Shown here: positions 21-8,465 of the stretch, piece by piece
Position numbering within the stretch: position 1 is the first letter of the stretch
How the letters are laid out: each line of letters starts with the position of its first letter
Source of the DNA: a virus
Lineage: Duplodnaviria > Heunggongvirae > Uroviricota > Caudoviricetes
Direction: 5' to 3' (one strand)
DNA: 8,465 nt
IMG/VR virus record: IMGVR_UViG_2671180454_000010
Translations under genes and position numbers: made by a program
Notes under the pieces: model-generated
Databases searched by the model: none
Told to the model about the DNA's origin: nothing
What the model saw: the letters and a program-made list of their open reading frames with translations, nothing else

Positions 21-1298
21 TTAAGCGCAGCTATTTAGTGAATTAAGTAAATTAGTCAGTGACCTTGTAAAGTCTGTTAAACCTTCCTGTGAACCATCGA
101 ACATTAAGGCCAGATTATTATTCCATGAATTACTTAAGCGGCCTAACTGCGTCTGAGTAGAGTTAATAATCTTTTCCCATCCACCAGCTTTATCAATCAT
201 CCTTCCCATTTCAGCGGATACTTTAGGAAAAACATCTTTAGAAAGAACCTTACCGTCTTTCATGGCCTTGTCTAATTCTTCCGTAGTCATCCCAAGACTT
301 CTGGCAAATAACTGAAAAGCACCTGCCATTCTGTCACCTAATTGACCGCGTAGCTCTTCAGCCTGAATCTTTCCTTTAGATGCCATCTGCTCGAAAGCTT
401 TTAAAATCCCGTTAATTTCATCGGTGCTTAGCCCCATTAATCTGGATGTACCAATCACATTAGAAAATAAGGATTCTTTCTGGTCTGCATTCATATCACC
501 AGCACCAGCGGAAAACTTAGCAAAACTGCTTAATGTTTCAATCTGGTCTACACCACTACTATCAGCAAGATTCTTAACAAATTCTGTAGCTCGTTTAGCA
601 CCTTCATCACCTAAAACGAATTGTGCCGCTCGTTGTGATGCTTCTTTTTTCAGACCAACCTCCATAATCCGCCTGTAAGCTTCTAAGGCTGTCTGAAAAC
701 TATAAATGGCTGTACCTGCTTTGATTGCACTCGTAGCTAATACATCCAGACTATTTGAAGCATTTTCACTGTGATTATTTTTGCTGGTGGTCTTGTTAAA
801 CTTAGAAAGTGTTTCACGAAGAGACTGATTTAACTTTGCTAACTCACGATTAAAAGTTTCGTTTCCAAGTGTCTTGGATTTACTGCTTAAGCTGTAATAC
901 TGGCTTTTAAAATACTTCTCAAGCATAGGATTAAAGTCACGAAGCTTGCTCATATTCGCTGAGTAAGCTGCTGTGATTGCTCTGCTTCCGCTAATTCGTG
1001 GCTGTCTTGGTTGTCTAAGTGGCTTTAAAGTATCCTCAATTTCAGTTTTAATCTTAAACGCTCTAGTGTTTTTAAGACGCTGCTCAATCTTGGAAACAGT
1101 TTTATCGACATTTCTTTCCATTAGTTTGAGAGAATCATTTAAAGGCGTAGGATTAACTCTAAACGACTTATTCAATCGCTTCTCAATTCGTGATGCTACC
1201 TGCATCGTTTGTTTCTCGGCTTTTTCCAAGCCTTTTAAAACTTTCTGAGAGTTAAAACTTAACTCAATCAGAAAATCATCAACTTTAAATTGTGCCAT
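21..1298 (-). CDS. tape-measure-domain protein (phage tail length tape-measure-like), 425 aa
   Basis: ATG at 1296-1298 preceded by AAAGAGGTGA 6 nt upstream; stop at 21-23. The C-terminal half (SKGKIQAEELRGQLGDRMAGAFQLFARSLGMTTEELDKAMKDGKVLSKDVFPKVSAEMGRM) matches, from memory, the conserved tape-measure domain pattern; the N-terminal half is coiled-coil-like. Shorter than typical tape-measure proteins and ends 20 nt from the window edge. Confidence 0.5.
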   Translation of the reverse strand: MAQFKVDDFLIELSFNSQKVLKGLEKAEKQTMQVASRIEKRLNKSFRVNPTPLNDSLKLMERNVDKTVSKIEQRLKNTRAFKIKTEIEDTLKPLRQPRQPRISGSRAITAAYSANMSKLRDFNPMLEKYFKSQYYSLSSKSKTLGNETFNRELAKLNQSLRETLSKFNKTTSKNNHSENASNSLDVLATSAIKAGTAIYSFQTALEAYRRIMEVGLKKEASQRAAQFVLGDEGAKRATEFVKNLADSSGVDQIETLSSFAKFSAGAGDMNADQKESLFSNVIGTSRLMGLSTDEINGILKAFEQMASKGKIQAEELRGQLGDRMAGAFQLFARSLGMTTEELDKAMKDGKVLSKDVFPKVSAEMGRMIDKAGGWEKIINSTQTQLGRLSNSWNNNLALMFDGSQEGLTDFTRSLTNLLNSLNSCA

Positions 1299-1686: not shown

Positions 1687-2397
1687 TCAAACAGCCTTGC
1701 TATACTTCTGAGAAATCTTCGTTAACTGCTCAATATCAGCCATCAAAGCAATCTTCTTCTGCGACTCATATTCACTAACAAGTTCTTTCATAGTATCAAG
1801 TTCTTTTTTAAGCTTTTGCTTTAACTTATCCAGTTTACCGGAATAATGCTTAGTCAAATTAGCTTCAGCTAACTGAAGAATCTCTTCATCTGTTTTATCA
1901 GTCATCAGAATAAATTGACCAGAACCCCTTAATGCTTGTCTGACATCAATTAACCGGAACCCTTCAGGGATACTTTGAAGAACTTTAGGAACGTCTTCAA
2001 TCGCTGTACCAAAACCATCATTAAAGTTTCCTTCATAATAGATAAACGGGTTTGACTTAATCTCGTAAGCAATATCATATTCTGAAGGTTTCGAGGTTTC
2101 TTCGAAGTTCTTAACAGCATCGTAAGCGACATCAAGTCTAAGACGCTGTGATTTTAAAGCTGGGTAATATTCACGCTCAAGCTCAAATAGTGCTTCAGTT
2201 TTGCAGATATCAGGCATTTCTTGAGGCTCAGGAGACACAAAGGAAATTACCTTTGGTGACATCTTTAGCTCTTGCTCAAGCTCAATGCGCTTGTCATGCT
2301 CTTGACGCTGAATAGTATGTAGCGGATGTTCACCCTGTGGTGACCAGTCTCCGAAGCTATCAACCTTTTTACCGTTAATATATAAATCGTTTGTCAT
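1687..2397 (-). CDS. hypothetical acidic protein, 236 aa (paralog of 4041..4652)
   Basis: ATG at 2395-2397 with AGAGGAAA 7 nt upstream. Collinear homology to the 203-aa ORF: shared PEP motif, DG(F/W)G, then 13 residues to (I/L)PEG.R, then DK(S/T)..E(L/I)...A...L; coiled-coil-like Lys/Glu-rich C-terminus. Confidence 0.6.
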   Translation of the reverse strand: MTNDLYINGKKVDSFGDWSPQGEHPLHTIQRQEHDKRIELEQELKMSPKVISFVSPEPQEMPDICKTEALFELEREYYPALKSQRLRLDVAYDAVKNFEETSKPSEYDIAYEIKSNPFIYYEGNFNDGFGTAIEDVPKVLQSIPEGFRLIDVRQALRGSGQFILMTDKTDEEILQLAEANLTKHYSGKLDKLKQKLKKELDTMKELVSEYESQKKIALMADIEQLTKISQKYSKAV

Positions 2398-2788: not shown

Positions 2789-2832
2789 ATGAGGTGTACT
2801 GGCAATAGCGGACACTACCATTTGTTCTTTTT

Positions 2833-3651
2833 TTAAGCAGCCATCTGATGATATTTTTCCCTGAAGGCTGCCGGGGAGATATTCCCCAGACGAGAGTGAC
2901 GACGCTGACGATTGTAGAAAATCTCAATGTATTCCCGTATTACTGAGATGGCTTCATCCCGGTTATTAAAACGATAGTGGCTCAGGCTCTCATTTTTCAG
3001 CGTTCCCCAGAAGCTTTCCATCGGAGCGTTGTCGTAACAGTTACCTTTACGCGACATTGATGTTTTCAGACCAGACTGCTCCTGTATGACCCGGTAATCG
3101 TATGCGCAGTACTGTGAACCTCGATCAGAGTGGTGGATTAGCCCGGCAGGTGGGCGCTGGCTCCTGAGCGCCATAAACAGGGCTTTACCTGTCAGCTCTT
3201 TTGTCATGCGCTCTCCCATGGCGTAGCCGACAATTTCGCACGTATAAACATCTTTGATGCCAGCGAGGTACAACCATCCCTCCTGTGTGGCAACATACGT
3301 CAGGTCCGCCACCCAGACCTGATTTGGTGCTGTAGGAGCGAACGTCTGGTTCAGCAGATTTGGCGCAACTGGCAGATTGTGGTTCGAGTTCGTAGTCGCT
3401 CTGAACTTGCGTTTCTGCTTACAGCGTAGCCTTAGCTCCTTACGAAGACGTGCCAGTCGGTCACGACCAACGATGATGCCATTCTCTGCCAGCTCCGTCT
3501 GGAGCCGCCGGGTTCCATATGTTTCGCGAGTGCGGATATGTGCCACCTTAATCTCCAGTTTTAGCCGCTCATCACTTTGTTTTCTGTCTGAGGGTTCATG
3601 CTGTACCCAGTTGTAATAACCGCTCCTGGATACACCAAATACCTGACACAT
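2833..3651 (-). CDS. IS3-family transposase OrfB (catalytic DDE domain), expressed as OrfAB fusion
   Basis: 272 aa from the first ATG. The same frame is open upstream to the A7 slippery site and is -1 relative to orfA. Integrase-like catalytic region typical of IS3-family OrfB (…HSDRGSQYCAYDY…RKGNCYDNAPMESFWGTLK…). Confidence 0.85.
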   Translation of the reverse strand: MCQVFGVSRSGYYNWVQHEPSDRKQSDERLKLEIKVAHIRTRETYGTRRLQTELAENGIIVGRDRLARLRKELRLRCKQKRKFRATTNSNHNLPVAPNLLNQTFAPTAPNQVWVADLTYVATQEGWLYLAGIKDVYTCEIVGYAMGERMTKELTGKALFMALRSQRPPAGLIHHSDRGSQYCAYDYRVIQEQSGLKTSMSRKGNCYDNAPMESFWGTLKNESLSHYRFNNRDEAISVIREYIEIFYNRQRRHSRLGNISPAAFREKYHQMAA

Positions 3652-3686
3652 CGCTTCAATGGGAAATTGTTGTCGCCATTGTTCGA

Positions 3687-3989
3687 TTAACGCGTATTTT
3701 TCAGCGACTCCTGTGCAAAATACGCTGTTGCTTTTTTTAATATATCTCGCTCAAGGCGAGCTTCATTTAACGCCTTACGCAGTTGCAGAATTTCAGATTC
3801 CAGTTCAGCCACCGTGCGGGAACCAGGAGTACCGAGCCCTTTTCTGGCGGCGGTAACCCATTGTCCTAAAGTGCCTTCAGGAAGAGATAATCGGGAAGCG
3901 CCTTCACTGATCGAAAGTTGATTTTCAGGAACCGTTCTGACAGCTTCGGCTTTGAACTCTTTAGAGTAACGTTGGGTTTTTCTGCTCAT
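3687..3989 (-). CDS. IS3-family transposase OrfA (HTH plus leucine-zipper-like region), 100 aa
   Basis: ATG at 3987-3989 with AGGAGC upstream. C-terminus (…ILQLRKALNEARLERDILKKATAYFAQE…) typical of IS3-family OrfA; ends just after the frameshift hairpin. Confidence 0.85.
   Translation of the reverse strand: MSRKTQRYSKEFKAEAVRTVPENQLSISEGASRLSLPEGTLGQWVTAARKGLGTPGSRTVAELESEILQLRKALNEARLERDILKKATAYFAQESLKNTR
3692..3739 (-). promoter_or_regulatory. programmed -1 ribosomal frameshift site of the IS (A7G slippery run plus downstream hairpin)
   Basis: Minus-strand TTA AAA AAA G (complement of T-run 3732-3738) in the orfA frame; slipping -1 reads …SNSVFCTGVAEKYALIEQWRQQFPIEAMCQVFG… into OrfB. A 9-bp stem GCGUAUUUU/AAAAUACGC (3692-3725) starts about 6 nt downstream. 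Confidence 0.6.
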
Positions 3990-4040
3990 TATTAGCTCCT
4001 TCTGATGCCATTCTATTTCAGGAAGGAGTGTCCGTTAAAC

Positions 4041-4652
4041 TCAGGCTACCTCACTAATCAGCTTAGCCAGTCTTGATTTCAGCAAATTAATCTCATTTTC
4101 TCTTGCTTTCATCAGTTTCTCTTTGGCAATTTCTTCAAGCTCAGCTTGTGATTTATCAGCAACAATTAGAGACAGTCGATGTGGTGCTCTGACAGCTCTT
4201 TCTGTACGAACAACTCTTTGACCTTCTGGTAAATCTGCAATCACTTTACCAATCTCTACAGGGTCATACCCCCAACCGTCACGGTCTAGTCGAGAGAAAT
4301 AAGCATAAGAATTGGTTTGAAGCTCCATCGAAATAACCATTTCGTCAATTTCGTCTTCAAGCTTGGACTGAATTTTCTCGTAAACACTTCTCATTGCTTC
4401 TTGAGAGTCTTTAATAGCTTGGAAATATCGGCGTTGTAGCTTCAACTTCAAATCAAGTTCACACCGTTCGTTCATAGAAAAATCAATTTCAACTCTTGGA
4501 ATCTCGAGTGGTTCTGGTGGAATATATGGACCTTTATTTACTTCGTGTGATTCCCGCCAAGCTCTATCAAAAGATTCACGCAAAGTTAATTCGTGAATAT
4601 CAAGTGCACTTGGTCTGTGTTCGATAAGCATTTCATGTTCATTTCTAATCAT
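4041..4652 (-). CDS. hypothetical acidic protein, 203 aa (paralog of 1687..2397); 3' end formed by the IS terminus
   Basis: ATG at 4650-4652 with AAGGGGTGA 5 nt upstream. Homologous to the 236-aa ORF (see above). The last 4 codons and the stop (4041-4053) lie inside the IS terminal inverted repeat, and the protein is about 30 residues shorter at the C-terminus than its paralog. Confidence 0.6.
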   Translation of the reverse strand: MIRNEHEMLIEHRPSALDIHELTLRESFDRAWRESHEVNKGPYIPPEPLEIPRVEIDFSMNERCELDLKLKLQRRYFQAIKDSQEAMRSVYEKIQSKLEDEIDEMVISMELQTNSYAYFSRLDRDGWGYDPVEIGKVIADLPEGQRVVRTERAVRAPHRLSLIVADKSQAELEEIAKEKLMKARENEINLLKSRLAKLISEVA

Positions 4653-4691
4653 TCGTTCACCCCTTAGTTTATTTGTTATTTCAATTTATAG

Positions 4692-4752
4692 AAGCACACT
4701 CAGCAATCAGAGGTGAAGAGTCTGACTGAACAAGAACCTGCCAAGTGTGCTT
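4692..4752 (-). promoter_or_regulatory. long-range inverted repeat in the leader of the 203-aa ORF
   Basis: Perfect 9-bp arms AAGCACACT (4692-4700) and AGTGTGCTT (4744-4752) separated by 43 bp; same position and geometry as the 2425..2496 repeat but unrelated sequence. Confidence 0.3.
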
Positions 4753-4791
4753 TTAAAAACTGAAAAAGCCCTAAACATTTCTGTGAAGGGC
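4751..4791 (-). terminator. GCCCU/AGGGC hairpin with U-tract (module 2)
   Basis: Stem GCCCT (4768-4772) / AGGGC (4787-4791), 14-nt loop; minus-strand transcript continues UUUUUCAGUUUUUAAAA. Directly abuts the conserved core. Confidence 0.4.
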
Positions 4792-4905
4792 AAAGGATTC
4801 AATAATGAATGAACAAGAGTACTTTTTGAGATAGCCTCTCAGACTAACCTGAAAGGCCATGACGAAAAGCATTGCACCTTTCCAACTCAGAATATCCATC
4901 CATCG
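4792..4905 (-). repeat. conserved non-coding element, copy 2 (candidate structured RNA or leader)
   Basis: 114 bp, about 95% identical by eye to 2634..2745; upstream of the 203-aa ORF. Predicted terminal helix 5'-GAUGGAUGGAUA (4904-4893) with UGUUCAUUCAUU-3' (4815-4804), plus internal hairpins GAAAGG/CCUUUC and GAGA/UCUC. Confidence 0.7.
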
Positions 4906-4910
4906 GATTA

Positions 4911-4942
4911 TTGAAAGAAAAATAAGAGAGAATTGCTCTCCC
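4911..4942 (-). terminator. hairpin GAGAG-CAAUU-CUCUC with U-rich tail
   Basis: Stem 4926-4930 / 4936-4940; the minus-strand transcript continues UUAUUUUUCUUUC. Could terminate the upstream 107-aa ORF transcript or be the first structure of the element's own transcript. Confidence 0.35.
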
Positions 4943-4951
4943 ATAATTAAA

Positions 4952-4980
4952 ATTATGCCATGCTTAAGGTTATTTGTCAA
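4952..4980 (-). promoter_or_regulatory. candidate sigma70 promoter facing the copy-2 element
   Basis: Minus strand TTGACA (4980-4975), 17-nt spacer, CATAAT (4957-4952): 11 of 12 consensus positions. Predicted start near 4945. Confidence 0.35.
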
Positions 4981-5081
4981 CAGCTTTTTAACAGGTTGAT
5001 AACATCAATTCTTATTTACCGCATTGTTAATAATACAACCAACAAATAAGCCAAGCAACGTCCAAGCAATTATTAAACCCA

Positions 5082-5405
5082 TTAGTGAACCCTCACAGAA
5101 TCCGTCACCAGAATATTATCACTGTACAGGATTGTCACAGCACCTTTCAAAAATTGCTCTGGGGAAATACTGTATATGTTCGTTTGCTCGATAACCAATC
5201 TTTTCATGTTGCTGTCTGTAATTGGTAGCATCATTCGAGGCTCGTTAAACTCCACCGACTGAATAAAGTCAGAGATGTTTTCTACATTATCAGCCATCAG
5301 CTTTAGTAATTTATCAAAATTAATTGCGATACCTGCATCAATGAAGCTTTGCACCATCATAGCAGTGTCGTTATCAACCATAATTTGCATTGGGTAATTA
5401 TTCAT
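5082..5405 (-). CDS. hypothetical protein, 107 aa
   Basis: ATG at 5403-5405 with AGGAG 8 nt upstream. The longer ORF to 5528 would start at TTG with no ribosome-binding site and would span leader hairpins, so the internal ATG is preferred. Confidence 0.55.
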   Translation of the reverse strand: MNNYPMQIMVDNDTAMMVQSFIDAGIAINFDKLLKLMADNVENISDFIQSVEFNEPRMMLPITDSNMKRLVIEQTNIYSISPEQFLKGAVTILYSDNILVTDSVRVH

Positions 5406-5572
5406 TTTTAAATCTCCTATGAAACACACCTCAGACCTCTTAAAATAGCCATTCTGAGGCCAGTAACCATGCGGGTTACAGAGGGAGTTGCACTGGCTGG
5501 TAAGGTAATTTATCAAATTAAGGTGCAACTCTGCCTGTAAAGTGCATTCTACCGTTTCTTAGATGGTTATTT

Positions 5573-5992
5573 TTAATTGTCTTTATTAATCAATGGCTTA
5601 ATGTAGAAATACTGTCTCCGTGAAATACCATATTTTTCTGTAATGTATCGCTGAGATTGACCAGCATTTATGGCCTGAGTGATATCATCACGGTTATAGC
5701 GGTTACCACGGGATTTATATTTGTCACCATCCACATCTTCTGAGGTATTGAAGTCTTCAATCAGCTTAATTGCATCGTGAAGGTCATCTTCTGAGGCATA
5801 ATCGAAGGTATGGATAATCTCAAAATCACCAGTATCTGCTGGTGCATTCTTCCATCTGGAGAAGCGGGATTTTAATTGCTGGTGTGTGAAGGGTTCAGCA
5901 TTACGAGTTAAATCTTTCCATGTTCCGTTATTCTCACGGACAAGGTGACCTCTATGGCGATAAAACGCATGATAATCAAATGTGCATAGCAT
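5573..5992 (-). CDS. hypothetical protein with C-terminal HTH-like segment, 139 aa
   Basis: ATG at 5990-5992 overlaps the stop of the upstream RHH ORF (TAATG). C-terminal …DDITQAINAGQSQRYITEKYGISRRQYFYIK… looks like a helix-turn-helix. Confidence 0.55.
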   Translation of the reverse strand: MLCTFDYHAFYRHRGHLVRENNGTWKDLTRNAEPFTHQQLKSRFSRWKNAPADTGDFEIIHTFDYASEDDLHDAIKLIEDFNTSEDVDGDKYKSRGNRYNRDDITQAINAGQSQRYITEKYGISRRQYFYIKPLINKDN

Positions 5993-6282
5993 TAAACCCC
6001 CAGCTTATCCGCCAGTTGATGAACCTTGGCACTCAACACCTGAATCATTGAGCAACCTGCCACTGCGGACTGTGCTTTGAGTAGTTCCAGTTGGCCCGTT
6101 GTGATTCTGATGGCCTTAGAACCCTCTGCAACGCCCTTGATAGCGTCAAACGGTGTAAGGGCTATGTGTTCCTTCAAAATCTCACCAACAAGTGCTGTGT
6201 GGCTCATGGCTGGGTATTTGTCTTTGATTGCTGCCAGTCTGGAATATGCCTCTGGCAAAAGGCGTGTAACTGTGTGTCTCAT
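5992..6282 (-). CDS. ribbon-helix-helix-like DNA-binding protein (apparent tandem RHH), 96 aa
   Basis: ATG at 6280-6282 with AAGGAAAA upstream. Two strand-helix-helix-like halves (TVTRLLPEAYSRLAAIKDKY… and IRITTGQLELLKAQSAVAG…). First gene of a minus-strand operon leaving a divergent promoter region. Confidence 0.5.
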   Translation of the reverse strand: MRHTVTRLLPEAYSRLAAIKDKYPAMSHTALVGEILKEHIALTPFDAIKGVAEGSKAIRITTGQLELLKAQSAVAGCSMIQVLSAKVHQLADKLGV

Positions 6283-6340
6283 TAAATTTTCCTTCTTAAA
6301 ATCTTTGACTTATAACTAACTTTAACATATTTATAACATA

Positions 6341-6369
6341 TTGTCAACAACTCATTTACATGTTAATAT
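6341..6369 (+). promoter_or_regulatory. candidate sigma70 promoter for the 61-aa ORF, in a back-to-back promoter region
   Basis: TTGTCA (6341-6346), 17-nt spacer, TAATAT (6364-6369). The complementary strand reads TTGACA at 6347-6342, a perfect -35 for the divergent RHH operon. Direct repeats TAACATATT at 6323-6331 and 6334-6342. Confidence 0.45.
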
Positions 6370-6420
6370 GGTTGTAGGGGGCTGATACAGGTCATTCCCT
6401 TTGATAAATAAGGGGAATTA

Positions 6421-6606
6421 ATGGGCTTTCTTGAAACAATTGCTGAATCTCACAGATTCGCAAGCTTAGGTTGCTTTGTGTTTCTGGTGCTTCTTGTGTA
6501 TCAGCTTTTAAAAATGATTATCGCCAGAAGTACACGATTCAATTTCAGCATTAAGCTTTTCAAATATGAAATCACAATTACGATTGATGATGGTAAAACA
6601 AACTAA
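6421..6606 (+). CDS. small single-pass membrane protein, 61 aa
   Basis: ATG at 6421 with AAGGGG 5 nt upstream; hydrophobic segment LGCFVFLVLLVYQLLKMII. Stop overlaps the stop of the convergent minus-strand ORF 6603..6893. Confidence 0.45.
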   Translation: MGFLETIAESHRFASLGCFVFLVLLVYQLLKMIIARSTRFNFSIKLFKYEITITIDDGKTN

Positions 6607-6893
6607 CGTTTTGTGATAATATTGGTGGCCTTTAAGTTGCTGGGGTCACCGTCTTTTAATCGTAGCTGGTGGATTGAATTCCAGATATCAAAATGATACA
6701 GCACTGCAAACCTCAAAGCGTCAATCTTTAAATCTGTCACACCATCGTAAAAGAAATAACCCCTCCCTTCTTTCTTTGGTCTAATCCGGTAAACTTCCCC
6801 GTGAGTATCCTTCATAAGATGACCTTCACGAGAAATGCTGTAACGCTTTAACAGGTAATCTTTGTATCTCTTTTCACCGTGATATTCTTTCAT
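6603..6893 (-). CDS. small protein with degenerate HNH/AP2-like fold (candidate DNA-binding module), 96 aa
   Basis: ATG at 6891-6893 with GGAGGAA upstream; start overlaps the upstream stop (TAATG). Pattern …EGRGYFFYDG…ALRFAVLYHF…RLKDGDPSNLKATN resembles HNH_3/AP2-type domains, but the expected catalytic His-x-Asp-Gly-Asn region reads LKDGD. Confidence 0.4.
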   Translation of the reverse strand: MKEYHGEKRYKDYLLKRYSISREGHLMKDTHGEVYRIRPKKEGRGYFFYDGVTDLKIDALRFAVLYHFDIWNSIHQLRLKDGDPSNLKATNIITKR

Positions 6894-7267
6894 TACTTAA
6901 TTCCTCCACCGGCAAAATACATCTTCGGTTTAATTTTTTGCTTCTTGTCATCCTGAGTTTGTTTCTTTTTCGGTGAAAGATAATAATCATCTTCACTGTC
7001 ATCGAATGGGTCTAAACCCGATACTTTGTTCTTTTGTCTTGCAAGCTCGAATCTCTTTTTCTTCTCTGCCCTCTTAATGGCTTTTTCACGTTCATCCTCT
7101 TCATCATCGAAGGGGTCCAACTCATCATCAGTGGCGGGGCACTGTGTGTTTTTATGGTCACTATCAACACTCACATCAGTGATTTCTCTGTCTTGTTTAG
7201 AAGTCTTTTTAGAGCTTACTTCAAGGTCAGATTCATTCATAGAGAGAAAATCATTTAATTCATCCAA
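6893..7267 (-). CDS. acidic protein with duplicated LDPFDD(E/S)EDD motif, start uncertain
   Basis: Frame is open from about 7375 to 6893 with no ATG before 7238-7240; the ORF track starts at TTG 7265-7267; neither has a clear Shine-Dalgarno. Two near-identical acidic motifs (DELDPFDDEEDE, SGLDPFDDSEDD) and a Lys-rich stretch. Confidence 0.45.
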   Translation of the reverse strand: MDELNDFLSMNESDLEVSSKKTSKQDREITDVSVDSDHKNTQCPATDDELDPFDDEEDEREKAIKRAEKKKRFELARQKNKVSGLDPFDDSEDDYYLSPKKKQTQDDKKQKIKPKMYFAGGGIK

Positions 7268-7334
7268 AGAAAGAAAGTCATCTTCTTTAATATCATCATT
7301 AAGTCCAGTCTCTTTATTCTTATCTGTAATATTA

Positions 7335-7366
7335 TTATCTAATGTTTTATCTAATAACTTATCTAA
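7335..7366 (-). repeat. tandem TTATCTAA repeats (3 copies, 12-bp period)
   Basis: TTATCTAA at 7335-7342, 7347-7354 and 7359-7366, plus a degenerate TTATCTG at 7320-7326; AT-rich, next to the TGACA-N3-TGTCA cluster. Confidence 0.5.
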
Positions 7367-7379
7367 ACTCTAACACGGG

Positions 7380-7437
7380 TGACATTTTGTCACTACCCCC
7401 ATGACATTTTGTCACTGGTAGTGGTGTCATTTTGTCT
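7380..7437 (-). promoter_or_regulatory. cluster of three TGACA-N3-TGTCA inverted-repeat sites (operator or iteron-like)
   Basis: TGACAtttTGTCA at 7380-7392 and 7402-7414, degenerate TGTCAtttTGTCT at 7425-7437; centre spacing 22-23 bp. Flanking inverted repeat CACTACC (7391-7397) / GGTAGTG (7417-7423). Overlaps the stop codon of the adjacent HTH gene. Confidence 0.55.
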
Positions 7438-7782
7438 TACTGAGGCTGCAACTTCCTGTGATGTAGGTCTTACAAGTAATTCCGGCTTATCATCCAGTGT
7501 GAATACACGATAAGTGCTTTGACGCCCCTGATTCTTTTGCACCTGAATTAAACCGTGTTTCTCAAGTGTCTCAATGGCTCTGATTGCTGTTCTCTTTGAT
7601 ACACCAGCCATATAAGCGAGATGGTCAATACTTGGTGAATATGATTTGTATTTCTCTTCATAGAAGTCACAGCTATGGACCATGACCATATAAATCAATC
7701 TTGCTGCTGCGTTAATTTCTTCTGAAAGTTGAGAGATTCGCACATCAAATTTATAAAACTGATTTGGGTTATATTTAGACAT
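7393..7782 (-). CDS. winged-helix/HTH DNA-binding protein, 129 aa
   Basis: ATG at 7780-7782 with GAGGTAA upstream. …LAYMAGVSKRTAIRAIETLEKHGLIQVQKNQGRQSTYRV… reads as helix-turn-helix plus wing. Family not identifiable by eye; could be a repressor or a replication-initiator N-domain. Confidence 0.6.
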   Translation of the reverse strand: MSKYNPNQFYKFDVRISQLSEEINAAARLIYMVMVHSCDFYEEKYKSYSPSIDHLAYMAGVSKRTAIRAIETLEKHGLIQVQKNQGRQSTYRVFTLDDKPELLVRPTSQEVAASVRQNDTTTSDKMSWG

Positions 7783-8145
7783 TCATAAATTACCTCATAC
7801 GTGAAAAGGCCAACCGGATAAAACCGATTAGCCTGTGTGATTAAAATATCTGGGGGATTGATGGACTGATAAAGAAGTCCATGCCTGAAACAGTACGATG
7901 ATTAAAACGCTGAGGTATACCCTGAATGAGAGGTTAATATACGCCAACCATCTGACACCTCCCCAAGTGTTACCACTTCAAGACATGAACTTTTTTATCA
8001 GCCCATATAGAAACTATAACAGATGCGATTATAAATTGCAACAATTATTTCACAGAATGATTACTGATTGGTCATTTATTGTTCACAGGGATACTTCTTA
8101 ATATCTGAATCACCTATCTTGTAAATGACCATATTTATGAGAATT

Positions 8146-8465
8146 TTAGCTCAACCTTTGAGCAATCCTGTATGACGTGCTCAGAGGCATTCTGAGAGCA
8201 TCTGCAATGCACTTAATGGGTTTTCCTTGCCTGTATAGTTTTATGAAGCTGTCGAGCGTCTCAGGTGGGTAAATGGTGGGTCTTCCTCTTAGTCCACCAC
8301 GGTTAATGATGGTTAACGGTAGCAATGTATCAGCACAGCAAACCATCTGTGTAATTTCATGCTTACGTGGTTCTTTTTTAAAAACAACGACTGCACTTGG
8401 AAACGGTGACCTAATAGTAAGCCTGTTATGCCCTGCTGGTGGAAGGTATTTAACTGCACGATGAA
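8146..8465 (-). CDS. 5'-partial ORF with resolvase-type (HTH_7-like) C-terminal DNA-binding segment
   Basis: Frame is open from the window edge to the stop at 8146-8148; the internal ATG at 8344-8346 has no Shine-Dalgarno. C-terminus …GRPTIYPPETLDSFIKLYRQGKPIKCIADALRMPLSTSYRIAQRL follows the GRP…IA…ST.YR pattern of serine-recombinase HTH domains; the upstream part does not look like a recombinase E-helix. Confidence 0.4.
   Translation of the reverse strand, partial: HRAVKYLPPAGHNRLTIRSPFPSAVVVFKKEPRKHEITQMVCCADTLLPLTIINRGGLRGRPTIYPPETLDSFIKLYRQGKPIKCIADALRMPLSTSYRIAQRLS

What the first reader, a model, noticed from the sequence alone, without database searches (positions are those of the whole stretch)
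7320..7437. Three phased TGACA-N3-TGTCA sites plus TTATCTAA tandem repeats at the 3' end of the HTH gene
Palindromic sites at 22-23 bp centre spacing (two helical turns) are the signature of cooperative binding by a dimeric HTH protein, as in tripartite phage operators or plasmid iterons. The adjacent AT-rich block has three or four 12-bp-period TTATCTAA repeats. The cluster overlaps the stop codon of the 129-aa winged-helix gene and precedes the acidic-protein/HNH-like pair. It could be an operator controlling the downstream genes or a replication origin with the HTH protein as initiator.
Basis: partly seen in the sequence, partly recalled or inferred. Interest (0 to 1): 0.5.

Follow-up and report, generated by a model that had tools for sequence, protein, structure and literature searches.

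The report
Decayed replication origin inside broken initiator gene
The repeats are the binding sites and easily melted AT-rich stretch of a replication origin that sits inside its own initiator gene, a well-known design, and in this Shigella sonnei-type copy the loss of one repeat has broken the gene in two.

Summary
There are two exact copies of TGACATTTTGTCACT and one imperfect copy, 22-23 bp apart, next to three exact TTATCTAA units and the least stable 60 bp of the window.

The gene structure was misread. In intact E. coli relatives the 129-aa "HTH gene" and the 124-aa "acidic protein" are one 301-328-aa gene. That gene encodes an N-terminal winged helix, then four iterons, then an AT-rich block, then a conserved acidic C-terminus. 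The window lacks one 23-bp iteron unit, which shifts the frame and creates the stop codon.

The origin reading is supported and the operator reading is not. This is a new member of a known kind, and this copy is probably inactive. No binding or replication was tested. The surrounding ~11-kb island may be an undescribed satellite-like element.

The parts
6893..7782 (-). Disrupted replication-initiator gene (pseudogene). It is the equivalent of the single 306-aa gene of E. coli 2011C-4315.
   Evidence: Alignment A1 with L001 22857-23777. More than 100 intact 301-323-aa homologues were found.
7393..7782 (-). N-terminal fragment ORF of 129 aa: a winged-helix DNA-binding domain ending at a frameshift-created TAG (7393-7395).
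7425..7437 (-). Distal, imperfect iteron. It reads AGACAAAATGACA on the coding strand and is iteron 1 of the intact array.
7402..7416 (-). Middle iteron (GTGACAAAATGTCA on the coding strand). It is the fusion product of iterons 2 and 3 of the four-iteron relatives. The deletion junction TCATGGGGGTAG spans 7393-7404.
   Evidence: Alignment A1.
7380..7394 (-). Iteron next to the AT-rich block (GTGACAAAATGTCA on the coding strand).
7367..7373 (.). 7-bp insertion (ACTCTAA on +) between the last iteron and the AT-rich block. It is absent from intact relatives. S. sonnei 53G has a 4-bp variant here.
7313..7373 (.). AT-rich block and presumed DNA-unwinding element. It is the least stable 60 bp of the window and is A-rich on the coding strand. 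It contains TTATCTAA x3 (7335, 7347, 7359) and a degenerate copy at 7320.
6893..7267 (-). Out-of-frame remnant of the conserved acidic C-terminal half (DPFDD motifs). It appears as a 124-aa TTG-start ORF.
   Evidence: Modelled as mostly disordered, with one helix at residues 239-261.
6603..6893 (-). Downstream 96-aa gene whose start overlaps the initiator stop (TAATG). It is conserved 81-94% across all specificity classes. Its function is unknown and it carries an HNH_3-like motif.
   Evidence: No Pfam, PHROG, NCBIfam or PADLOC hit.
8013..8041 (-). Promoter-like site TTGCAA-17-TATAGT upstream of the initiator gene. The hexamers are conserved in all three classes.

Best explanation
The repeats are the iterons and the AT-rich unwinding element of a theta-type replication origin. 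That origin is embedded in the coding sequence of its own initiator gene, on an ~11-kb island integrated in yecE of Escherichia/Shigella.

How intact copies would work (inferred by analogy with lambda O and pSK41 Rep):
- Dimers of the N-terminal winged helix bind each semi-palindromic iteron (arms TGACA/TGTCA around an A4 tract).
- Four iterons 22-23 bp apart put the dimers on one face of the helix, where they form a bent nucleoprotein complex.
- The adjacent block of ~15% GC melts.
- The acidic C-terminal half, shared by all specificity classes, recruits a host or helper helicase or primase.

What happened in this window:
- One 23-bp iteron unit was lost by misalignment between repeats.
- The loss shifted the frame and created a stop codon inside the array.
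- Only the 129-aa DNA-binding fragment can now be made, and the C-terminal half is out of frame.
- Three iterons and the AT-rich block remain, with a further 7-bp insertion between them.
- This copy is therefore most likely a dead initiator with a decaying origin. At best the origin could fire if an intact class-A initiator were supplied in trans.
For: **Shown**

1. In E. coli 2011C-4315 the homologous region is one 306-aa ORF. Alignment A1 shows that the window lacks exactly one 23-bp iteron unit and has a 7-bp insertion.
2. Of the 120 best intact homologues, 118 encode the four-iteron form. Two carry +15 aa, equal to 45 bp or two extra iterons, which keeps the frame.
3. Odd changes in iteron number break the ORF every time they are seen:
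   - three iterons in the S. sonnei-type copies, in L008 and in L020;
   - three iterons with a different junction in L015;
   - five iterons in the class-B copy L022.
4. There are three classes of N-terminal domain, 30-40% identical to each other. Each has its own four semi-palindromic, A/T-centred iterons:
   - class A: GACAAAATGTCA;
   - class B: AACCAGAATTTGGTT;
   - class C: AGTCAAAATCTTTGAC.
   
   In every class the iterons are 22-23 bp apart, start at codons ~116-141, and are followed by a block of 15-17% GC and the same C-terminal half.
5. Iterons fall in all three codon phases, so the repeat is conserved as DNA and not as peptide.
6. Lambda O has its four iterons at codons 117, 124, 132 and 139. 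Class A has them at 116, 124, 131 and 139. Both genes reach their AT minimum at nt 441-480.
7. The AT-rich block is the least stable DNA of the window. It is A-rich on the coding strand in all classes and in lambda.
8. The modelled N-terminal domain is closest to replication initiators:
9. PHROG hits are to replication-initiation and O-like families.

**From papers**

- The lambda origin lies in the middle of O, with 4 iterons in lambda and 6 in Stx phages (PMC7466680).
- pSK41 Rep binds four Rep boxes located centrally in rep, and the ori-encoded linker is dispensable. pPR9 has a swapped ~500-bp module of N-terminal domain plus ori, carrying a PF13730 HTH (PMC5703833).
- RepA_N iterons are semi-palindromes converging on a poly-A tract (PMC7145576).
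- The PLE RepA N-terminal domain covaries with the ori while the C-terminal domain is conserved (PMC8263062).
Against: - No binding, unwinding or replication has been measured for any member of this family. The mechanism rests on analogy.
- Sequence membership in the classical families fails:
  - BLASTP and hhalign find no similarity to lambda O;
  - there is no Pfam Phage_rep_O or RepA_N hit.
- No helicase, primase or P/DnaC-like loader gene was recognised on the island, so how a replisome would be recruited is unknown.
- The family was not found in sequenced phages, IMG/VR contigs or plasmids. There is therefore no independent sign that the island ever replicates autonomously.
- Linkage alone would make adjacent iterons and N-terminal domains co-inherit. 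The argument rests on conserved architecture with diverged sequence, not on the association itself.
Confidence: 0.85

Rival explanations
1. The phased palindromes are a transcriptional operator. The 129-aa HTH protein binds them cooperatively to repress or activate the downstream genes, or itself.
For: - The protein is a winged-helix protein that also scores weakly against MarR, GntR and Crp HTH models.
- Generic winged-helix regulators appear among the fold matches.
- Phased dyad sites are typical of operators.
- Iteron-bound initiators of some plasmids also autoregulate (general knowledge).
Against: - In intact relatives the sites lie in the middle of a 306-328-aa ORF, with no promoter-like site at or downstream of them.
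- The actual rep promoter region is nearly identical in classes A and B although their iterons differ, and it contains no iteron-like sequence.
- The sites are always followed by a strongly AT-rich, A-skewed block, as in origins.
- The best fold and PHROG matches are initiators.
Confidence: 0.06
2. The truncated 129-aa DNA-binding fragment is retained because it is useful. By occupying class-A iterons it would block replication of incoming related elements, so the site cluster would now serve as an incompatibility or exclusion determinant and not as an origin.
For: - The identical 129-aa allele is present in many assemblies (2126 index blocks) and in at least two genomic contexts.
- The fragment keeps the whole winged-helix domain.
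- N-terminal fragments of initiators are classical dominant-negative ori binders (general knowledge).
Against: - The abundance is explained by heavy sequencing of the young S. sonnei clone.
- The same junction arises trivially from a deletion between iterons 2 and 3 of a common parent type.
- Further small indels accumulate right next to the iterons in S. sonnei copies (window +7 bp, strain 53G +4 bp), and an IS600 has rearranged the island. Both indicate decay.
Confidence: 0.05
3. The repeats are a different kind of protein-binding array, such as a partition centromere or a packaging site, or they are a peptide repeat or a chance repeat with no DNA-level function.
For: - Phased dyad repeats also occur in centromere-like parS/parC sites.
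- The 12-bp TTATCTAA period is a multiple of three and encodes L-D-K/N repeats, so that part could be a peptide-level repeat.
Against: - No partition or terminase genes were recognised.
- The 22-23-bp iterons occupy all three codon phases.
- Their cores are invariant while the spacers vary.
- 0 of 300 shuffles reproduce such a repeat.
- Three diverged classes keep the same architecture.
Confidence: 0.03

Closest known systems
Bacteriophage lambda O protein and ori-lambda (lambdoid and Stx phages)
   Same: - The origin lies inside the initiator gene, between the DNA-binding N-terminal domain and the C-terminal domain.
- There are four dyad-symmetric, A-tract-centred iterons at codons 117-139 (116-139 here), 20-24 bp apart.
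- An AT-rich block, A-rich on the coding strand, follows immediately at nt 441-480 in both genes.
- Four-iteron and six-iteron variants both occur, and the extra pair adds 13-15 in-frame residues.
- The downstream gene overlaps the initiator stop codon.
   Different: - No detectable sequence similarity (BLASTP E 1.3; hhalign probability 0.1%).
- No Pfam Phage_rep_O domain.
- The C-terminal half is acidic and modelled as disordered.
- There is no P-like loader gene.
- The element is an 11-kb island with a serine integrase, not a lambdoid phage.
RepA_N-type plasmid initiators (pSK41/pTZ2162 Rep) and the chimeric pPR9 Rep with a PF13730 HTH
   Same: - Protein of ~300-320 aa whose N-terminal ~120-residue winged helix binds four Rep boxes located centrally in the rep gene.
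- The ori-encoded central segment acts as a linker, and the C-terminal domain is conserved separately.
- Iterons are semi-palindromes converging on a poly-A tract.
- A ~500-bp module of N-terminal domain plus ori is exchanged while the C-terminal domain and upstream region are kept, as in pPR9 versus pSK41.
- pPR9's N-terminal domain is PF13730, as here.
   Different: - The known examples are Gram-positive plasmids, whereas this is a chromosomally integrated element confined to Escherichia/Shigella.
- No Pfam RepA_N hit.
- The C-terminal domain is unrelated, and a DnaG interaction is not known here.
- No antisense-RNA control was identified.
RepA of the Vibrio cholerae phage satellite PLE
   Same: - The element also carries a large serine recombinase.
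- The N-terminal domain and iterons covary as a swappable module while the C-terminal domain is conserved.
- No helicase or primase is encoded.
   Different: - The PLE ori is intergenic, with three ~30-bp iterons, and is not inside repA.
- Only 18% sequence identity.
- No other PLE-like gene was recognised here.
- Satellite behaviour of the Escherichia island is untested.

Membership tests
Lambda-type O/ori module | Origin (iterons followed by an AT-rich tract) located inside the initiator gene, between its two domains | tested here: met
   Intact relatives. Iterons at codons 116-139 against 117-139 in lambda O, and the AT minimum at nt 441-480 in both.
Lambda-type O/ori module | N-terminal domain belongs to Pfam Phage_rep_O (PF04492), or shows sequence homology to lambda O | tested here: not met
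   Lambda O scores 123 bits on PF04492 and this family does not score at all. BLASTP E 1.3. hhalign probability 0.1%.
Lambda-type O/ori module | P-like helicase-loader gene immediately downstream | tested here: not met
   The downstream 96-aa protein has no Pfam, PHROG, NCBIfam or PADLOC hit.
RepA_N-type initiators (pSK41-like) | N-terminal winged-helix domain with the RepA_N/DnaD-NTD fold | tested here: met
   [not shown]
RepA_N-type initiators (pSK41-like) | Sequence match to Pfam RepA_N (PF06970) | tested here: not met
   Not among the hits at E <= 0.1 or E <= 0.01. There are only weak DnaD_N hits (E 0.034 and 0.0053).
RepA_N-type initiators (pSK41-like) | Four semi-palindromic Rep boxes with a central A-tract, located centrally in the rep gene | tested here: met
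   Definition taken from PMC5703833 and PMC7145576.
RepA_N-type initiators (pSK41-like) | The N-terminal domain binds the boxes, the central linker is dispensable, and the C-terminal domain binds a host replisome protein | not testable with these tools
   The only indication is a modelled disordered segment at residues 116-230.
PF13730 (HTH_36) replication proteins (pPR9-type, phage Rep) | Pfam HTH_36 score above the gathering threshold | tested here: met
   31.2 bits (window fragment) and 29.3 bits (P0001) against a cut-off of 25. Class B scores only 18.4 bits and class C has no hit.
Transcriptional operator (tripartite phage-type) | Sites overlap or flank a promoter that they control | tested here: not met
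   The sites are intragenic in intact relatives. The only promoter-like site lies at 8041-8013, upstream of rep. The upstream region is unchanged between classes A and B, whose iterons differ.
Phage satellite (PLE-like) | Helper-phage-dependent excision, replication and packaging | not testable with these tools
   The island has a large serine integrase and an initiator with a RepA_N-like fold. It is absent from IMG/VR and INPHARED.

The most novel reading that the evidence does not exclude
The ~11-kb yecE island may be an undescribed phage-satellite-like replicon of Escherichia/Shigella, built on the same logic as Vibrio PLEs.

- It carries a large serine integrase, a tape-measure-like gene, an endolysin-like gene, about eight unknown genes, this initiator and a Dam methylase.
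- Relatives of the region occur in about 9% of complete E. coli genomes.
- Like PLEs, it has an initiator with a RepA_N fold, no helicase of its own, and swappable origin-specificity modules. These could be driven by incompatibility or by phage counter-attack on the origin.
- Slippage of the 22/23-bp iterons would then act as a frequent, in principle reversible, on/off switch of replication competence. Single-unit changes frameshift the initiator and double-unit changes do not.
Probability: 0.15. Interest if true: 0.6.

Novelty: new member of a known kind. Interest (0 to 1): 0.35.

Why it matters
The result turns two 'hypothetical' ORFs of Shigella sonnei into one interpretable pseudogene. It also assigns a probable replication module to a small island found in roughly a tenth of E. 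coli genomes.

It gives a clean natural example of how an origin embedded in a gene constrains both. Iteron number can change only in pairs without destroying the initiator, and single-unit slippage is a recurrent route to inactivation.

The three interchangeable classes of N-terminal domain and iterons offer ready-made specificity variants. They could be used to study initiator-iteron recognition or to build compatible replicons.

The structural link to PLE RepA, together with the large serine integrase, suggests that the island deserves testing as a possible satellite. None of this changes the general understanding of iteron origins.

Tried and rejected
- **Megablast of the whole window against phages and plasmids.** Only IS600 (about 2790-4055) matched.
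- **tblastn of the intact initiator against 50,697 phage records.** No match.
- **Pattern search of IMG/VR.** No relative.
- **GTDB species representatives.** One locus, from an Escherichia sp..
- **Lambda O homology.** Tested by BLASTP and hhalign, with nothing found.
- **PDB sequence search.** Nothing meaningful.
- **NCBIfam.** Only sub-threshold HTH regulator hits.
- **PADLOC on the island's unknown proteins.** Only the orphan methyltransferase.
- **Rfam and tRNA scans of the window.** Nothing.
- **DnaA boxes.** TTATCTAA differs from TTATCCACA at 2-3 positions. This was judged by eye and is not supported.
- **IHF sites.** Two near-matches, each with a mismatch in the ATCAA core. This was judged by eye and not pursued.
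- **Dam control of the origin.** There is no GATC in 7268-7440 (read), so this was rejected.
- **Programmed frameshifting.** Rejected because the broken copies differ in the shift they would need to restore the frame: the window has a net -16 and L012 -19, while L008 has -23.
- **Literature searches.** They found no description of this island.

Full report
**1. The observation**

All genes in this part of the window run on the minus strand. On the plus strand:
- TGACATTTTGTCACT occurs exactly at 7380-7394 and 7402-7416.
- A third, imperfect copy (TGTCATTTTGTCT) lies at 7425-7437. Start-to-start spacing is 22 and 23 bp.
- Only the first two copies are TGACA-N3-TGTCA palindromes. The core common to all three is TG[A/T]CATTTTGTC.
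- TTATCTAA is exact at 7335, 7347 and 7359 (12-bp period; TRF score 43). A degenerate copy is at 7320.
- The stop codon of the 129-aa ORF (7393-7395) lies between the first two sites.

The phased repeat is not a chance feature. No exact 13-mer pair at 18-26 bp was seen in 300 dinucleotide-preserving shuffles, against 3 observed. The adjacent segment 7313-7373 is the least stable 60 bp of the whole 8.5-kb window (dG -60.0, against mean -78.0, sd 5.1). The octamer TTATCTAA on its own is not over-represented. Only its tandem arrangement stands out.

**2. Where the window comes from**

- Against phage and plasmid collections only an IS600 copy (about 2790-4055) matches.
- Window 2790-8465 is 99.95% identical to Shigella sonnei chromosomes.
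- Relatives of 4100-8465 occur in 493 of 5426 complete E. coli genomes, always on the chromosome.
- In E. coli 2011C-4315 the region is part of an ~11.4-kb island that splits yecE. The island carries a large serine integrase, a phrog_3721/endolysin-like 'baseplate' gene, a tape-measure-like gene, about eight unknown genes, the HTH gene and a Dam methylase.

**3. The gene structure was misread**

In that relative the 'HTH gene' is a single 306-aa ORF. Its order is winged helix, then four iterons, then the AT-rich block, then an acidic C-terminal half. The C-terminal half is the window's 124-aa 'acidic protein'.

The pairwise alignment shows four differences in the window:
- exactly one 23-bp iteron unit is missing;
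- there is a 7-bp insertion (7367-7373) between the last iteron and the AT-rich block;
- there are two in-frame deletions further downstream.

The 23-bp loss shifts the frame and produces ...SDKMSWG-stop. The window therefore holds a pseudogene of a ~306-aa protein, not two genes.

More than 100 distinct intact homologues of 301-323 aa exist in E. coli. Of the 120 best, 118 encode the four-iteron form. Two carry an extra 15 residues (SDKMTPLPVTKCHGG). That equals 45 bp, or two more iterons, which preserves the frame.

Odd changes in iteron number are found only in broken genes:
- three iterons in the S. sonnei-type copies, in L008 and in L020;
- three iterons with a different junction in an Escherichia sp. 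(L015);
- five iterons in a class-B copy (L022), which NCBI annotates as two ORFs.

Slippage between iterons is thus a recurrent way of inactivating the gene.

**4. Comparative test of function**

A distant blastn search showed that many relatives match only the 3' half of the gene, from nt 508 or 570. Fetching them revealed three classes. Class-C positions were counted by hand from the sequence printed.

| Class | N-terminus begins | Iteron (coding strand) | Iteron starts (codons) | Spacing (bp) |
|---|---|---|---|---|
| A (window) | MSKYNPNQFYKFD... | GACAAAATGTCA | 116, 124, 131, 139 | 23, 23, 22 |
| B | MKKETNAFIMVD... | AACCAGAATTTGGTT | 118, 125, 133, 141 | 22, 23, 23 |
| C | MEKFHMFDD... 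| AGTCAAAATCTTTGAC | 118, 126, 133, 140 | 22, 22, 22 |

- The N-terminal domains are homologous but only 30-40% identical, and they differ in the predicted recognition helix and wing.
- In every class there are four iterons with dyad symmetry around an A/T tract. A block of 15-17% GC, A-rich on the coding strand, follows, and then the same conserved C-terminal half.
- The iterons fall in all three codon phases. Their cores are invariant while the spacers vary. What is conserved is therefore DNA, not peptide.
- The Dam-rep intergenic region, including a promoter-like TTGCAA-17-TATAGT at 8041-8013, is almost identical in classes A and B right up to the start codon.
- No exact copy of the iteron motif occurs elsewhere in the 44-kb relative.

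The exchanged unit is thus a ~500-bp module made of the N-terminal domain, the iterons and the AT-rich block.

**5. What the protein is**

- The 129-aa fragment passes the Pfam HTH_36 threshold (31.2 bits against 25).
- It matches the N-terminal parts of PHROG 'replication initiation protein / O-like / DnaD-like' families down to 1.4e-11.
- An AlphaFold model built from a 12-sequence alignment gives a confident winged helix for residues 10-105. Residues 116-230, the part encoded by the iterons and the AT-rich block, have low confidence. There is one helix at 239-261 and the tail is otherwise disordered.
- Foldseek gives the same initiator matches: 4RO3, 4PQL, 4PT7 and 5KBJ.
- According to PMC7145576, 4RO3 is the N-terminal domain of RepA of the V. 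cholerae satellite PLE, a RepA_N-type initiator.

**6. Comparison with known systems**

*Lambda.* The origin lies in the middle of O, as four iterons followed by an AT-rich tract. Stx phages have six iterons, which add 13 residues. Three iterons are reported to suffice for lambda (PMC7466680). In the lambda record the iterons start at codons 117, 124, 132 and 139 and the AT minimum is at nt 441-480. Class A has iterons at 116, 124, 131 and 139 and the same AT minimum. Even so, BLASTP and hhalign find no similarity to lambda O. This family has no Phage_rep_O domain, and no P-like gene follows.

*pSK41.* Rep is 319 aa. Residues 1-120 bind four Rep boxes located centrally within rep. Residues 121-199 are encoded by the ori and form a dispensable linker. 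The C-terminal domain binds DnaG. pPR9 is a natural chimera in which about 500 bp (N-terminal domain plus ori) are replaced by a PF13730 HTH and a new origin. The C-terminal domain and the upstream control region are retained, and the result is a compatible replicon (PMC5703833). That is the same modular pattern seen here.

*RepA_N iterons.* They are described as semi-palindromic direct repeats whose inverted arms converge on a poly-A tract (PMC7145576). [quoted passage not shown]

**7. Most likely mechanism**

*Shown.* The anatomy, its conservation with diverged sequence in three classes, the frame constraint on iteron number, the initiator-like fold, and the low duplex stability of the AT block.

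*Inferred by analogy.*
- Dimers of the winged helix bind each iteron.
- The 22-23-bp phasing puts them on one face and bends the DNA.
- The adjacent AT-rich block opens.
- The conserved acidic C-terminal half, with two DPFDD/DDFDD motifs, recruits a helicase or primase from the host or from a helper phage.
- The 12-bp TTATCTAA repeats are specific to class A and may be repeat units of the unwinding element. Because their period is a multiple of three, they could also reflect the L-D-K peptide repeat.

*In the window.* The initiator is truncated to its DNA-binding domain, and the origin has lost one iteron and gained 7 bp. The S. sonnei 53G copy has a different small indel at the same place, and IS600 has rearranged the island. 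All of this indicates decay. The origin could at most respond to an intact class-A initiator supplied in trans.

**8. Verdict**

- The origin/initiator reading is supported by comparison. The operator reading is not.
- The description 'at the 3' end of the HTH gene, preceding an acidic-protein gene' is an artefact of a frameshift.
- The design is already well known from lambdoid phages, RepA_N plasmids and pPR9. This is a new member of a known kind, and this particular copy is a degenerate one.
- The family is narrow. Only five clusters at 50% identity score E < 1e-30 among 1.84 billion representatives. There is one locus among GTDB species representatives and none in IMG/VR or INPHARED.
- I found no paper in the held library that describes the island.
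- Its possible nature as a PLE-like satellite is the most novel reading that remains open. I rate that reading as unlikely but worth a test.

Noticed in passing
window 2790-4055: A complete IS600 (IS3 family; orfA 3687-3989, orfB 2833-3651, minus strand) sits inside the island. To its right the window is 99.95% identical to S. sonnei chromosomes. To its left (1-2789) it is not, and it resembles a different variant of the island (L008-like, ~81%). This suggests an IS-mediated junction between two related copies.
   Followed up: partly
window 4041-4652 and 1687-2397 (minus strand): Two paralogous genes of unknown function (203 and 236 aa; 25% identity, BLASTP E 2e-15) flank the IS600. The intact relative L001 has only one of them. 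Neither has a Pfam, PHROG, NCBIfam or PADLOC match.
   Followed up: partly
window 21-1298 (minus strand); L001 17034-19202: The tape-measure-like ORF (Pfam TMP_3, phrog_4036) is 425 aa in the window but 722 aa in the intact relative. It is probably truncated here as well.
   Followed up: no
L001 14572-25900 (E. coli 2011C-4315): The whole ~11.4-kb island splits yecE. It combines a large serine integrase, a tape-measure-like gene, an endolysin-like 'baseplate' gene, about eight unknown genes, the initiator and a Dam methylase, with no capsid or terminase genes. Relatives occur in 493 of 5426 complete E. coli genomes, but none were found in phage, plasmid or IMG/VR collections. It could be a satellite-like element or a conserved prophage remnant.
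   Followed up: partly
window 6283-6602: This intergenic region holds the second least stable 60 bp of the window (6281-6341) and an 11-bp tandem repeat, AACATATTGAC x2.4 (6324-6349). It lies between the 96-aa gene 5992-6282 (minus strand) and a small plus-strand ORF, 6421-6606, which is annotated in relatives as a 61-aa hypothetical protein. It may be a divergent regulatory region.
   Followed up: no
window 7783-8145: A promoter-like TTGCAA-17-TATAGT (8041-8013, minus strand) is followed by a leader of ~230 nt before the initiator start codon. The leader is nearly identical in classes A and B and diverged in class C. It has no Rfam match. Some RepA_N plasmids control rep through such leaders with antisense RNA.
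   Followed up: partly
L008 and L020, last iteron of the array: In two E. coli copies the iteron next to the AT-rich block reads GTGACATTTTGTCAC instead of GTGACAAAATGTCAC. The palindromic arms are kept and the central A-tract is flipped.
   Followed up: no
window 6603-6893 (minus strand): The 96-aa gene overlaps the initiator stop codon (TAATG). It is 81-94% conserved in all three classes and has an HNH_3-like motif (HQLRLKDGDPSNL) but no family hit. Its position is the one the P gene occupies after lambda O.
   Followed up: partly
C-terminal half of the initiator (window 6893-7267; P0001 residues 225-280): Two conserved acidic motifs, (L/M)DPFDD or LDDFDD followed by acidic and aromatic residues, loosely resemble the acidic tip of E. 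coli SSB (DFDDDIPF; recalled from memory, not tested). They could be short docking motifs for replisome proteins.
   Followed up: no
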